A stretch of DNA of 64,000 bases from Promethearchaeota archaeon (GTDB lineage Archaea; Asgardarchaeota; Lokiarchaeia; Sigyniarchaeales; SOKP01), in the NCBI GenBank assembly GCA_048940925.1, contig JBHLOC010000018.1, positions 8,415 through 72,414 of the forward strand, in the 5' to 3' direction. The notes below the pieces were generated by a model. The model was not told the origin of the DNA, searched no databases, and saw only the letters and a list, made by a program, of their open reading frames with translations. Both the position numbers and the translations under genes were made by a program. The first letter of the stretch is position 1; each line of letters starts with the position of its first letter. Positions 36,245-41,398 of this stretch are shown here, in pieces.

Positions 36245-37834
36245 TTATTTATGGTTGATTTGTTCCCCATATCCTATTAGTCGATAACGCCTATTAATTA
36301 TACGAGAAATAGCATATATGAAATCTTCAGGGGGACAAATAGGAGGTGTAAGTTTTATAATAACACTATTTTTTAAAATTTTCGTAACAGTCCCACCTGT
36401 TTTTTCCGTTCCTACTACAAGTAATAATTTCTCTCCATGTTTGAGAGGTTGAACTTTCATTTGAACTTCAGATCCAATAACTCTATCTAAAAGATTTACA
36501 TTCAGCTCAACTTCGCTAAGAATTTTAGGTAATGTTCCTATTTTTCCAACTAAATGGCCAATTAGATGATCTCCTTTTGTTAACGCGGGATCTAATTTTG
36601 TACCTAACCCTATGAGACCTCCAGGTTTAGCATTTTCCAAAGGATTATTTCCTTGGCTTATACTTACAACCGTAGATTTTAATGGTACATACTGATCTTT
36701 AACTCGTATCCCCGGGCTAATTTCGATTTGGTCTCCAACTATTATTTTTCCTTTTAAAACAGAGCCCCCTATTACACCACCTTTTAAATCCTTAATTTCT
36801 TTACCTGGACGATTGATATCAAAGGATCTCGCAATTAAAAATTGAAATGACTCCTCCTCTTTAAATTTTGGAGTAGGAATAACCTCTTCAAAAGCTCTTA
36901 TTACAAGATTTATATTCGCCCCAAAAACTGCCGATAAGGGTATAATTGGAGCATTTTCAGCAACAGTTCCTTTTATAAATTCTTTTATTTGTTGAAAGTT
37001 CTCTAAGGCTTGTTCTCGAGAAACAGCATCAATTTTATTTTGTAATATAATAATATTTTTTATGCCCGCAATATTTAAAGCCGCTAAGTGTTCCCGTGTT
37101 TGAGGTTGAGGGCATTGCTCATCAGCTGCAATTAAAAGGCAAGCCCCATTCATTAATGATGCACCACTTAACATAGTTGCCATTAATATCTCATGACCAG
37201 GCGCATCAACAAATGAGATATTTCTTCTAAATTCTAGATTTCCTTTACATTTTGGGCAAGAGAATCGAGCTTGTCCTTTTTCTCTATCTTTTTCTGCAAG
37301 ATAAGCCGTTGTATATTCATTACATTCGGAACAATAAAGAATTGAGGCATTAGAATACCCTAACTTTATTGAAATTCCTCTTTCTTGCTCTTCTGAGTGG
37401 CGATCAGTCCAATCTCCAGTTAGGGCTTTTACTAGGGTTGTCTATATGTTTCATGAAGGATTCCTTCAAAAAATTCCATGATCAACATGCCCTACAAGCC
37501 CTATATTACATTCTGCTTGTTGTTTGATTAATTCTTTTATCTTCTTAGCTTTCTCTTTCGAAACTGGCTTTGCTTTAGGTTTAGATATCGTTTCTTCTTT
37601 AATTATTTCTTTCACTTCATCAGATTGTTCTATTTTTTGACTTTTCTTTAGAATTTTTTTAGCATTTGTAATATACTTCTCTGCTGTTGCTTTTCCAACA
37701 CCTTTTATTTTTAGCTTTAATAAATCCTTGGGTTCAGCATTTGCAAGTTTTTCAACAGAATCAATATTAGCAGCCTTTAATCTTTCTGCTGTTGCTTTTC
37801 CAATTCCACTTACATCTTCCAATTTATATGACAT
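36245..37834 (-). CDS. eif2g: Translation initiation factor 2 gamma subunit with N-terminal HhH domain; join(37474..37834, 36245..37443), 519 aa after removing a 30-nt insert
   Basis: Exon 1 ends NIGLVGHVDHG. Exon 2 continues in the same frame TTLVKALTGDWTDRHSEEQERGISIKLGY, CxxC/CxxC knuckle, FVDAPGHEILMATMLSGA, PQPQTREH, QNKID, RSFDINRPG, RLIGYG. Confidence 0.95.
37444..37473 (-). other. Candidate bulge-helix-bulge intron in aIF2-gamma mRNA (30 nt)
   Basis: Removing UUUUUUGAAGGAAUCCUUCAUGAAACAUAU restores AAG (Lys of GHVDHGKTT); both junctions fall after nt 2 of 3-nt bulges flanking a 4-bp helix. Confidence 0.8.
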
Positions 37835-40966: not shown

Positions 40967-41121
40967 ATTCTTCAGCTCTCCTTGCGATCTTCCTTTTGAA
41001 TTTAATCTTTTTAATGAAAAACTTTTTTTATTACTCTTTATTCTTCTAACTACACTTTACCAAATAAGTAAAGATTTACATTGTAAATAATAGTACTTAT
41101 TAGATGGTAAAATGTGGTTTT

Positions 41122-41302
41122 ATAACCACATAAATATATAGCATTTTGCTAAGCGCCGGATGTTAAACTTATAAGTGTTGCAGGATAGTACTGCAGTTGC
41201 GATCTGTGGGAAACCTCAAACTGTGAGTTCGCTCACGGTCATGGCTTTAAAGGATAATACCCGGTCCCATCCGAACCCGGAAACGCTTATTTATGTGGTT
41301 AT
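41122..41302 (+). other. Processing stem with a BHB/BHL motif flanking the permuted 5S rRNA
   Basis: ATAACCACATAAAT (41122-41135) pairs with ATTTATGTGGTTAT (41289-41302); AAGCG (41151-41155) with CGCTT (41284-41288); CCGG (41156-41159) with CCGG (41277-41280); bulges AAA and ATG. Confidence 0.8.
41162..41282 (+). rRNA. rrf: 5S rRNA gene, circularly permuted (3' half 41162-41227, UUCG linker 41228-41231, 5' half 41232-41282)
   Basis: Helix III/loop C signature CCCGGTCCCATCCGAACCCGGAA at 41260-41282. GTTAA plus loop E AGTA...GGGAAAC lie upstream of it instead of downstream. Helix I CTGTGAG/CTCACGG is closed by TTCG. Confidence 0.9.
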
Positions 41303-41398
41303 TAATGACATTAACCTTTTGTTTCTCTAAAAATAAATTTTTATACGATTAATTATAAATCTAATTAATATTTCATAATAAATTAGCTGAAAACACAT

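What the first reader, a model, noticed from the sequence alone, without database searches (positions are those of the whole stretch)
41122..41302. Circularly permuted 5S rRNA gene with a splice-type (BHB/BHL) processing stem
Seen: the two halves of 5S rRNA are swapped. 41162-41227 is the 3' half (GUUAAAC..., loop E AGUA/GAAA, ...CUGUGAG) and 41232-41282 is the 5' half (CUCACGG...ACCCGGUCCCAUCCGAACCCGGAA). The normal termini are joined by UUCG, which caps helix I. The new ends lie in an inverted repeat: a 14-bp distal stem, AAGCG/CGCUU, a 3-nt AAA bulge, a 4-bp CCGG/CCGG helix and then AUG. Established: the archaeal splicing endonuclease (EndA) cuts after nt 2 of each bulge and RtcB ligates; permuted tRNA genes (Thermofilum, red algae) and the permuted SRP RNA of Thermoproteus mature this way. 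Applying that rule gives cuts at AU|G (41161/41162) and AA|A (41282/41283), and ligation yields CCGAACCCGGAA-GUUAA, the conserved 5S junction, as a 121-nt circle. Inference: this 5S rRNA is made by circularisation and may function as a closed circle. The leader CCGG would also compete with the mature helix III CCGG (41261-41264), implying a folding switch. Caveat: the inner helix is weak, so the motif is relaxed (BHL-like). I am not aware of a described permuted 5S gene but cannot check.
Basis: partly seen in the sequence, partly recalled or inferred. Interest (0 to 1): 0.95.

Follow-up and report, generated by a model that had tools for sequence, protein, structure and literature searches.

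The report
Back-to-front 5S rRNA gene, ring-forming
This Asgard (Loki-type) archaeon encodes its only 5S ribosomal RNA with the back half before the front half, between tRNA-splicing-type cut signals, so a normal 5S can form only if the transcript is cut and its new ends joined, most likely into a 121-base ring; this also explains why 5S genes look "missing" from many Asgard genomes.

Summary
Window 41162-41227 is the 3' half of a 5S rRNA, UUCG caps helix I, and 41232-41282 is the 5' half. The new ends lie in a bulge-helix-bulge (BHB) motif under a 14-bp stem.

- **Only 5S in the genome:** Rfam finds just a 22-bit fragment here and nothing else in this complete assembly. The re-permuted sequence gives one full-length hit to an HMM of canonical Asgard 5S (47 bits against 18.6 and -2.9).
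- **Not an assembly artefact:** 118 of 131 sampled genomes of the family, two of them closed, carry one such gene. None sampled has a colinear 5S scoring over Rfam's cut-off.
- **The motif is under selection:** the 4-bp central helix is fully paired in 86 of 87 loci, the bulges are always 3 nt, and the outer helix covaries.
- **Break positions differ:** four occur, two of them at one syntenic locus within this genus. In each, cutting after bulge nucleotide 2 rebuilds the canonical 5S.
- **Other support:** related 5S genes carry 30-nt BHB mini-introns, and the genome has two EndA paralogs and one RtcB.

No RNA data could be obtained, so cutting, joining and the ring remain inferred. This scan has flagged the same feature in at least 93 other genomes. 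I found no paper describing it.

The parts
41096..41107 (+). Putative archaeal TATA-like promoter element (CTTATTAGATGG), about 22 nt upstream of the distal stem
   Evidence: Conserved as CTTATATAATGG or CTTATTAAATGG at the same distance in same-genus loci (alignment). Its promoter role is inferred, not tested.
41122..41135 (+). Distal processing stem, 5' strand (AUAACCACAUAAAU)
   Evidence: Perfect 14-bp complement of 41289-41302. In A1, 83.8% of cells are paired and 9 of 12 pairs change on both sides.
41140..41150 (+). Small leader hairpin (AGCA-UUU-UGCU) between the distal stem and the BHB
   Evidence: Folded. The two central pairs are kept in 26-29 of 30 sequences. A hairpin sits at the same place in distant Asgard loci L140, L141, L157 and L159.
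41151..41155 (+). BHB outer helix h, 5' strand (AAGCG)
   Evidence: Pairs with 41284-41288. All 5 pairs change on both sides across 30 sequences and 88.5% of cells are paired. Variants include AACG/CGUU, CCGC/GCGG, AAUG/CAUU and UAGA/UUUA.
41156..41159 (+). BHB central 4-bp helix H, 5' strand (leader CCGG, a decoy of the helix III 5' strand)
   Evidence: Pairs with 41277-41280. It is fully paired in 86 of 87 loci, with compensatory CUGG/CCAG in 15 (14 type A, 1 type B) and wobble-containing CUGG/UCAG in 4. Distant lineages use CGUG/CACG, CCGU/ACGG or CCGA/UCGG.
41160..41162 (+). 5' bulge AUG; predicted cut between 41161 and 41162, so G41162 is the first retained base
   Evidence: The bulge is A-N-G in 59 of 59 type-A loci. 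The G is always kept and the middle base varies.
41162..41227 (+). 3' half of 5S rRNA: helix III and helix II 3' strands, helix V, loop E, helix IV, loop D, helix I 3' strand
   Evidence: HMM positions 49-115 of canonical Asgard 5S. Helices II, IV and V covary.
41228..41231 (+). UUCG tetraloop joining the native 3' and 5' ends and capping helix I
   Evidence: Helix I is 99.6% paired, and the three pairs next to the loop covary. The loop is UUCG, UUAG, UUUG or UACG across loci.
41232..41282 (+). 5' half of 5S rRNA: helix I 5' strand, loop A, helix II 5' strand, loop B, helix III, loop C
   Evidence: Rfam partial hit at 41258-41283. A full-length HMM hit appears after re-permutation.
41277..41280 (+). 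BHB central helix H, 3' strand; the same bases form the helix III 3' strand in mature 5S
   Evidence: The two pairings exclude each other.
41281..41283 (+). 3' bulge AAA; predicted cut between 41282 and 41283, so A41282 is the last retained base
   Evidence: The bulge is A-A-N in 59 of 59 type-A loci, and the third base varies (A 30, U 24, G 5).
41284..41288 (+). BHB outer helix h, 3' strand (CGCUU)
41289..41302 (+). Distal processing stem, 3' strand (AUUUAUGUGGUUAU)
41317..41342 (+). T-rich tracts (TTTTGTTT, TTTTT), candidate archaeal transcription stop signals
   Evidence: Read from the sequence. T-runs lie downstream in relatives too. The role is inferred.

Best explanation
This is the organism's single, functional 5S rRNA gene, and it is circularly permuted at the DNA level.

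**What is encoded.** A short independent transcript carries leader, 3' half, UUCG, 5' half and trailer. Leader and trailer pair into a long stem. The base of that stem is a bulge-helix-bulge motif: outer helix AAGCG/CGCUU, 3-nt bulge AAA, 4-bp helix CCGG/CCGG, 3-nt bulge AUG.

**Inferred maturation.** The tRNA-splicing endonuclease EndA cuts after the second nucleotide of each bulge (41161|41162 and 41282|41283). The RNA ligase RtcB then joins A41282 to G41162. This restores the universal CCGGAA-GUUAA sequence at the base of helix III and lets helix III form once the leader decoy is gone. The product is a 121-nt covalently closed 5S whose helix I is capped by a tetraloop.

**Status of each step.**
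- Shown: the permuted order, that this is the only 5S detected in the assembly, purifying selection on the BHB geometry, and the presence of the enzymes.
- Inferred: cleavage (my odds about 0.85), ligation into a ring (about 0.75), and that the ring rather than a re-opened form sits in the ribosome (about 0.55).
For: - **Identity and order:** the native order gives only a 22-bit Rfam fragment. The re-permuted order gives one full-length hit at 47.2 bits, against 18.6 and -2.9 bits for the native order.
- **Sole copy:** there is no other RF00001 match at E<=10 in the 100%-complete assembly, and one match to the permuted model R1.
- **Conservation:** R1 hits one locus in 118 of 131 sampled genomes of the family, in 1 of 1 of family f3 and in 2 of 4 of f4. 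It hits none of 14 in the sister family f2, which has canonical 5S at 54-68 bits. The hits include closed genomes G006 and G023. A DNA pattern for 'helix I capped by a short loop' found about 90 Asgard records.
- **BHB under selection:** H is fully paired in 86 of 87 loci, bulges are exactly 3 nt, h has at least 3 bp in 83 of 87, and there are many compensatory changes.
- **The cut rule is predictive:** four break positions exist. These are GGAA|GUUAA (this window), GGA|AGUUAA, within loop C (GGUC|CCAUCC), and within loop B. Each regenerates a canonical 5S of 119-123 nt.
- **Cross-validation within the genus:** two of these types share one syntenic locus. The predicted junction of each type is encoded contiguously in the other (21 of 22 and 19 of 22).
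- **Pre-5S is an EndA substrate elsewhere in the clade:** 27 of 34 extra segments in relatives' 5S genes resolve as BHB introns of mostly 30 nt. Removing them restores the intron-less sequence.
- **Enzymes:** there are two EndA-family genes, one nearest the catalytic subunits of crenarchaeal heterotetrameric EndA (3P1Z_B, E 4e-33), and one RtcB.
- **Precedents:** the permuted SRP RNA gene of Thermoproteus tenax is matured by EndA into a functional circle (PMC4731332). Circular 23S rRNA has been reported in archaeal ribosomes (PMC12918454). An E. coli 5S with its native ends closed by a tetraloop supports viable ribosomes (PMC7283268).
Against:
- The inner helix h' is only two A-U pairs (U41163-A41275, U41164-A41274) and is absent in the other break types. 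The motif is therefore relaxed and needs a broad-specificity endonuclease.
- The unconstrained minimum-free-energy fold of the precursor (-59.2 kcal/mol) is not exactly the BHB conformer (-52.1 with the 5S helices fixed).
- Current literature states that archaeal 5S, unlike 16S and 23S, is not circularised (PMC12918454). That statement rests on other lineages.
- Sequence alone cannot tell a ring from a nicked linear permuted 5S, or from a ring re-opened at the tetraloop.
Confidence: 0.72

Rival explanations
1. The gene is permuted and processed at the same two sites, but the ends are never joined. The ribosome would carry a linear, permuted 5S with a nick at the base of helix III and a tetraloop-capped helix I, like the linear permuted mitochondrial 5S of brown algae.
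For: Exact, gap-free boundaries would also be selected for a nicked molecule. Permuted linear 5S exists in brown-algal mitochondria (PMC4267664). The nick in this window's type lies between two helices that could hold the ends together.
Against: Sister genes break inside loop C or loop B or helix II, where a nick would leave a conserved functional loop held by only 4-6 bp. The ends carry a complete BHB, whose EndA products are the substrates of RtcB, and RtcB is present. Known BHB-flanked archaeal RNAs (tRNA introns, pre-16S and pre-23S, Thermoproteus SRP RNA) are circularised (PMC4731332; PMC12918454). A break that moves freely within one syntenic locus is easier to tolerate if the final RNA has no break.
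Confidence: 0.13
2. The ring is only an intermediate. After ligation it would be re-opened at or near the UUCG loop to give a conventional linear 5S with native ends, as permuted tRNAs are finished by RNase P and tRNase Z.
For: Permuted tRNA genes mature this way (Soma 2007, as cited in PMC4267664). The classical model for archaeal 16S and 23S includes re-linearisation (PMC12918454).
Against: The linker is only 3-5 nt, typically a UUCG or UACG stable tetraloop. It varies at its third position with no conserved cleavage context. Helix I pairs right up to the loop covary, which suggests a structural cap rather than a spacer. Tetraloop-capped helix I is compatible with ribosome function (PMC7283268).
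Confidence: 0.12
3. The locus is a rearranged pseudogene or an assembly artefact, and the real 5S gene simply failed to assemble.
For: The assembly has 90 contigs and 8.4% estimated contamination. rRNA genes are often missing from metagenome bins.
Against: The same arrangement occurs as a single copy in 118 of 131 family genomes, including closed chromosomes, at a syntenic locus. Compensatory changes preserve every 5S helix and the BHB. No canonical 5S scores above threshold in any of the 24 same-genus genomes searched.
Confidence: 0.02

Closest known systems
Permuted SRP RNA gene of Thermoproteus tenax / T. uzoniensis (Plagens et al. 2015, eLife, PMC4731332)
   Same: An essential ribonucleoprotein RNA is encoded with its halves swapped. 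The canonical gene is 'missing' from the genome. [quoted passage not shown]
   Different: The RNA there is SRP RNA, not a ribosomal RNA, and the case is confined to a few Thermoproteus species.
Circularly permuted tRNA genes (Cyanidioschyzon merolae; Thermofilum pendens)
   Same: The 3' half lies upstream of the 5' half, there is a BHB at the junction of leader and trailer, and a circular RNA is formed (as summarised in PMC4267664; the Thermofilum case is from my own knowledge).
   Different: In tRNAs the circle is an intermediate. The linker between the native ends is a longer spacer that RNase P and tRNase Z remove. Here the linker is a 4-nt stable tetraloop with no sign of a processing site.
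BHB-dependent circularisation of archaeal pre-16S/23S rRNA, circular 23S in ribosomes, and RNA-level permuted 23S of Pyrococcus and Thermococcus (PMC12918454, PMC7758197, bioRxiv 10.64898/2026.03.23.713588)
   Same: A processing stem with a BHB flanks an rRNA. EndA and a ligase give a circular rRNA, and circular or permuted large rRNAs are reported in mature ribosomes.
   Different: Those genes are colinear and the circle joins the native ends. Here the gene itself is permuted and the ligation creates an internal 5S bond. PMC12918454 explicitly excludes 5S from circularisation.
Permuted mitochondrial 5S rRNA of brown algae (Valach et al. 2014, PMC4267664)
   Same: A natural 5S whose helix I is a closed hairpin rather than the meeting point of the termini.
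   Different: It is an organellar RNA in which only the alpha domain is rearranged. The product stays linear with ends in the three-way junction, and there is no BHB, no EndA and no ligation.
Engineered cp5S rRNA in E. coli (Huang et al. 2020, PMC7283268)
   Same: The native 5S ends are linked by a tetraloop and new ends are opened in loop C or loop D. The resulting ribosomes are active.
   Different: It is man-made, the cp5S is fused into 23S rRNA, and it is not circular.

Membership tests
5S rRNA (Rfam RF00001) | Scores at or above the family's gathering threshold (38 bits) as a colinear molecule | tested here: not met
   The native order gives 22.1 bits over model positions 26-52 only. This is expected for a permuted gene.
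5S rRNA (Rfam RF00001) | Full-length sequence similarity to canonical 5S once the halves are put in the normal order | tested here: met
   nhmmer with an HMM of 9 canonical Asgard 5S gives one hit, HMM 3-114, 47.2 bits, E 3.8e-16, with 51-64% identity to individual genes. Infernal could not be run on a rearranged sequence with the tools offered.
5S rRNA (Rfam RF00001) | Three-way junction with helices I-V, loop E (AGUA/GAA) and loop C (CCCAUCCGAAC), kept by covariation | tested here: met
   Helices I, II, IV and V are 82-99.6% paired, with 2-4 covarying pairs each. The 121-nt sequence folded as a circle recovers helices I, II and III. The loop motifs are read from the sequence.
Archaeal bulge-helix-bulge (hBHBh') splicing motif | Two 3-nt bulges on opposite strands separated by a 4-bp helix | tested here: met
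   The bulges are AUG (41160-41162) and AAA (41281-41283), and the helix is CCGG/CCGG. The same geometry occurs in 86 of 87 loci, with compensatory changes.
Archaeal bulge-helix-bulge (hBHBh') splicing motif | Outer helix h flanking one bulge | tested here: met
   AAGCG/CGCUU. All 5 pairs covary. In other Asgard lineages h is 9-14 bp.
Archaeal bulge-helix-bulge (hBHBh') splicing motif | Inner helix h' flanking the other bulge (strict motif) | tested here: not met
   Only U41163-A41275 and U41164-A41274 can pair, and there is none in break types B and C. The motif is the relaxed form.
Archaeal bulge-helix-bulge (hBHBh') splicing motif | Cleavage by EndA after bulge nucleotide 2, and ligation by RtcB | not testable with these tools
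   Two EndA paralogs and one RtcB are encoded. The cut rule predicts canonical 5S in all four break types. No enzymology or RNA data were available.
Permuted non-coding RNA genes matured through a circular RNA (tRNA, SRP RNA) | 3' half upstream of 5' half, with the native ends joined by a short linker | tested here: met
Permuted non-coding RNA genes matured through a circular RNA (tRNA, SRP RNA) | No colinear copy of the gene in the genome | tested here: met
   for the own genome. No hit exceeds the threshold in 24 same-genus genomes.
Permuted non-coding RNA genes matured through a circular RNA (tRNA, SRP RNA) | RNA molecules spanning the new junction | not testable with these tools
Brown-algal permuted mitochondrial 5S (mtPerm-5S) | Only helix I replaced by a terminal hairpin, ends in the open three-way junction, linear product | tested here: not met
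   Here the ends lie at helix III and the loop B side, inside a BHB, far from the junction.

The most novel reading that the evidence does not exclude
The ribosomes of a large part of the Asgard archaea, the closest known prokaryotic relatives of eukaryotes, contain a covalently closed circular 5S rRNA. It can be made only by the tRNA-splicing machinery from a back-to-front gene. Because the final molecule has no ends, the gene's break point drifts freely: four positions were seen, two of them at one syntenic locus in one genus. The same genes also collect 30-nt BHB mini-introns. Ribosome production in these lineages would therefore depend strictly on EndA and RtcB.
Probability: 0.5. Interest if true: 0.92.

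Novelty: new variant of a known kind. Interest (0 to 1): 0.88.

Why it matters
- **5S rRNA is treated as invariant.** It is among the most conserved RNAs, its gene is assumed to be colinear in all cellular genomes, and one review of Asgard rRNA calls it 'essentially constant' (PMC7594248). A gene-level permuted 5S that must be cut and re-joined would be the first ribosomal RNA of a cellular genome known to need RNA ligation to exist at all. It would probably also be the first natural circular 5S.
- **It answers a practical puzzle.** Authors of closed Asgard genomes reported that 5S genes 'could not be predicted' (PMC8813620). Standard Rfam and RNAmmer annotation, and genome-quality criteria that count 5S, fail on these lineages for this reason.
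- **It widens the role of EndA and RtcB.** In this clade their substrates would include tRNA, rRNA and apparently mRNA, in the lineage from which eukaryotes arose.
- **It offers a natural experiment.** The moving break points show how permuted RNA genes evolve.

Tried and rejected
- **Infernal on the re-permuted sequence:** I used nhmmer with an HMM of canonical relatives instead.
- **Blind BHB scan for introns:** a scan of the mature sequences gave many spurious candidates and missed the loop C site near the 3' end. I replaced it with an alignment-anchored search. Seven of 34 inserts were still mis-registered by the aligner. For one of them (L057) I read the insert by eye as a 30-nt BHB intron at the CCGAA|CCCGG site; the other six were not re-examined individually.
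- **Insert as expansion segment:** I first read the inserts in loop C and helix IV as possible expansion segments. I rejected this because they obey the BHB rule and their removal restores the relatives' sequence.
- **Leader CCGG as a relic of a duplicated 3' strand:** rejected, because in non-palindromic variants the leader is complementary to the 3' strand, not identical to it (CUGG with CCAG, CGUG with CACG).
- **Sigma-70 promoter and terminator scan:** not run, since it does not apply to archaea.
- **Pseudogene or misassembly:** rejected (see rival explanations).

Full report
**What is in the window.**
- A perfect 14-bp inverted repeat (41122-41135 with 41289-41302) encloses the locus.
- Inside it lie a small leader hairpin (41140-41150) and the helix AAGCG/CGCUU (41151-41155 with 41284-41288).
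- Next come the 4-bp helix CCGG/CCGG (41156-41159 with 41277-41280) and two 3-nt bulges on opposite strands (AUG 41160-41162; AAA 41281-41283).
- Between the bulges lie the 3' half of a 5S rRNA (41162-41227), UUCG (41228-41231) and the 5' half (41232-41282).
- The locus sits in a 432-nt gap between two protein genes. Only a spurious 51-codon frame overlaps it, and there is no tRNA nearby.
- A TATA-like element upstream (41096-41107) and T-runs downstream (41317-41342) are conserved in position in relatives. This suggests an independent transcription unit, which is an inference.

**It is a 5S, and the order is swapped.**
- Rfam at gathering threshold finds nothing in the 64-kb window. With relaxed thresholds it finds only helix III and loop C (41258-41283, model 26-52, 22.1 bits).
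- I built an HMM from nine canonical 5S genes of a sister family in the same order. The 117-nt sequence 41232-41282 + 41162-41227 gives one full-length hit (HMM 3-114, 47.2 bits, E 3.8e-16).
- The native order gives HMM 49-115 first (18.6 bits) and HMM 3-18 second (-2.9 bits). Infernal itself could not be run on a rearranged sequence.
- Folded as a circle, the 121-nt segment recovers helices I, II and III of 5S.

**It is the only 5S, and it is not an artefact.**
- The whole assembly (100% complete, 90 contigs) has no other RF00001 match even at E<=10.
- None of the 24 same-genus genomes has a 5S above threshold. Sister family f2 has canonical genes at 54-68 bits.
- A covariance model of the part common to all permuted genes (R1) finds one full-length locus in 118 of 131 sampled genomes of the family (12 of 13 genera). 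It also hits 1 of 1 in f3 and 2 of 4 in f4, but 0 of 14 in f2. The hits include the closed genomes G006 and G023.
- A DNA pattern for 'helix I 3' strand, short loop, helix I 5' strand, CAURG' scanned over one genome per prokaryotic species returned 93 records. About 90 are Asgard (Promethearchaeota) assemblies, including CP070831 and CP070805. Two are chance matches in Alphaproteobacteria.

**The BHB is under selection and the cut rule is predictive.**
- In 87 loci the central helix is fully paired in 86. Variants are CCGG/CCGG, the compensatory CUGG/CCAG, and the wobble-containing CUGG/UCAG and CUGG/CCGG.
- Both bulges are always 3 nt, and the outer helix has at least 3 contiguous pairs in 83.
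- In the 59 genes of the window's type, the bases predicted to be kept never vary (third base of the 5' bulge is G; first two of the 3' bulge are AA). The bases predicted to be discarded do vary.
- On an alignment of 30 intron-less genes of this type, 87.5% of cells are paired against 76.5% in shuffles (0 of 500) and 34-39% for slid partners. All five pairs of the outer helix change on both sides, the central helix is 100% paired, and tetraloop-capped helix I is 99.6% paired with three covarying pairs next to the loop.

**Four break positions, one rule.**
- Within this one genus, at a locus with conserved genes on both sides, five genomes, including this one, break the gene at GGAA|GUUAAAC. 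Fifteen break it 16 nt away, inside loop C, at ACCCGGUC|CCAUCC.
- In the second type the leader carries CUGG, which pairs with the helix III 5' strand. The bulges are AAC and UCA.
- Cutting after bulge nucleotide 2 gives circles of 119-123 nt in both types.
- The predicted ligated junction of each type is written contiguously in the genes of the other (21 of 22 and 19 of 22). This is the strongest internal test available without RNA.
- A third family breaks the gene in loop B (H = CCGA/UCGG, both bulges AAA).
- Several other Asgard families break it at GGA|AGUUAAGC. They have textbook outer helices of 9-14 bp and H = CGUG/CACG.
- Sub-threshold RF00001 hits in further families proved to be permuted genes too.
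- In an even sample of 151 genomes of the phylum, 49 have a canonical 5S. At least 41 have a permuted one: 37 by model R1 and 4 more by inspection.

**Pre-5S is an EndA substrate in other ways in this clade.**
- Thirty-three of the 84 distinct genes carry one extra segment and one carries two, nearly all of 30 nt.
- Anchored on alignments to intron-less relatives, 27 of the 34 segments resolve as BHB introns with a fully paired 4-bp helix, two 3-nt bulges and an intron-internal helix.
- They sit at four sites: two in helix IV and loop D, and two in loop C. Removing them restores the relatives' sequence.
- The remaining seven were mis-registered by the aligner; one of them (L057) reads by eye as a 30-nt intron at a loop C site. 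The window's own gene has no intron.

**Enzymes.**
- The genome encodes one RtcB (556 bits) and two EndA-family proteins of about 200 residues.
- One is closest to the catalytic subunits of the heterotetrameric crenarchaeal enzymes (3P1Z_B, E 4e-33). By my reading it keeps the Tyr/His/Lys catalytic residues.
- The other lacks the Tyr and His (and my reading).
- A two-subunit EndA is the kind known, from my own knowledge, to accept relaxed motifs. That fits the weak inner helix here.

**Mechanism.**
- The leader's CCGG occupies the helix III 3' strand in the precursor. With the other 5S helices fixed, this conformer is computed to be 4.3 kcal/mol more stable than the one with helix III formed.
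- After two EndA cuts the leader and trailer leave. RtcB would then join the 2',3'-cyclic phosphate at A41282 to the 5'-OH of G41162, and helix III can form.
- The cap on helix I is a 4-nt, usually UNCG-type, loop with no conserved processing context, and the adjacent pairs covary. I therefore favour the ring as the final form.
- Tetraloop-capped helix I is known to be compatible with ribosome function (PMC7283268). Circular 23S in archaeal ribosomes has been reported (PMC12918454).
- Cleavage, ligation and the final form are all inferences. No RNA data could be obtained.

**Comparison with what is known.**
- The closest natural case is the permuted SRP RNA gene of Thermoproteus tenax, matured by EndA into a functional circle (PMC4731332). 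Permuted tRNA genes are the next closest.
- Brown-algal mitochondrial 'permuted' 5S is a different thing: a linear RNA with no BHB (PMC4267664).
- Seven full-text searches found no natural circular or gene-level permuted 5S.
- One recent paper states that archaeal 5S is not circularised. The authors of closed Asgard genomes wrote that 5S 'could not be predicted'.
- The library lacks most subscription journals, so prior description cannot be excluded.

**Earlier notes of this scan.** The same feature has been flagged in at least 93 other genomes. Some follow-up notes report the joined RNA in environmental data. I did not test those claims, and they are not counted as evidence here.

**Verdict.** What remains open is the RNA-level proof and whether the ring is the ribosomal form.

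Noticed in passing
L032:2923-3054, L104:3283-3414, L033:2180-2311 and about 30 further loci (relatives' 5S genes): 30-nt BHB mini-introns interrupt permuted 5S genes at four sites: UUGCGA|UCUG and CUGCAA|UUGCG in helix IV and loop D, and CCGAA|CCCGG and CCCAU|CCGAAC in loop C. L033 has two. Removing them restores the intron-less sequence of relatives. I know of no described 5S rRNA introns in archaea.
   Followed up: partly
L012-L030 (same genus) against window 41122-41302: At one syntenic locus, congeneric species differ in where the 5S gene is broken (GGAA|GUUAAAC or GGUC|CCAUCC, 16 nt apart). The difference amounts to moving a 16-nt block from trailer to leader. An intermediate with the block at both ends would have had two alternative BHBs.
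   Followed up: partly
L087 (DATKTW010000142.1, labelled Candidatus Nanopelagicaceae bacterium), 743-900: A contig filed under an actinobacterial MAG carries a typical Loki-type permuted 5S gene with its BHB. It is probably a mis-binned Asgard contig.
   Followed up: no
L125:1453-2049 (-) and L126:1210-1812 (+), own genome contigs C58 and C18: There are two EndA paralogs of about 200 aa. One has the catalytic Tyr/His/Lys and is closest to crenarchaeal catalytic subunits. The other lacks Tyr and His. This suggests a heterotetrameric, broad-specificity splicing endonuclease in this Asgard lineage.
   Followed up: partly
L004 (G032:C1:1399892-1400758): A closed genome of the sister family has three tandem canonical 5S genes about 375 nt apart. 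This is the kind of array from which a permuted gene could arise by duplication and loss.
   Followed up: no
L161:150-305 (G263, family f9): A colinear 5S gene of about 152 nt has a roughly 30-nt extra segment after helix II and III. It scores below the Rfam threshold and may be another 5S intron in a lineage with a normal gene order.
   Followed up: no
L142 (G115:C109:5310-5382): A second, weaker match (44 bits) to the permuted 5S model lies about 700 nt downstream of the main gene on the same contig. It may be a decayed duplicate.
   Followed up: no
window 37436-37486: Earlier notes of this scan describe a 30-nt BHB mini-intron in the aIF2-gamma gene 3.7 kb upstream, the same length as the 5S introns seen in relatives. 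I did not re-examine it.
   Followed up: no
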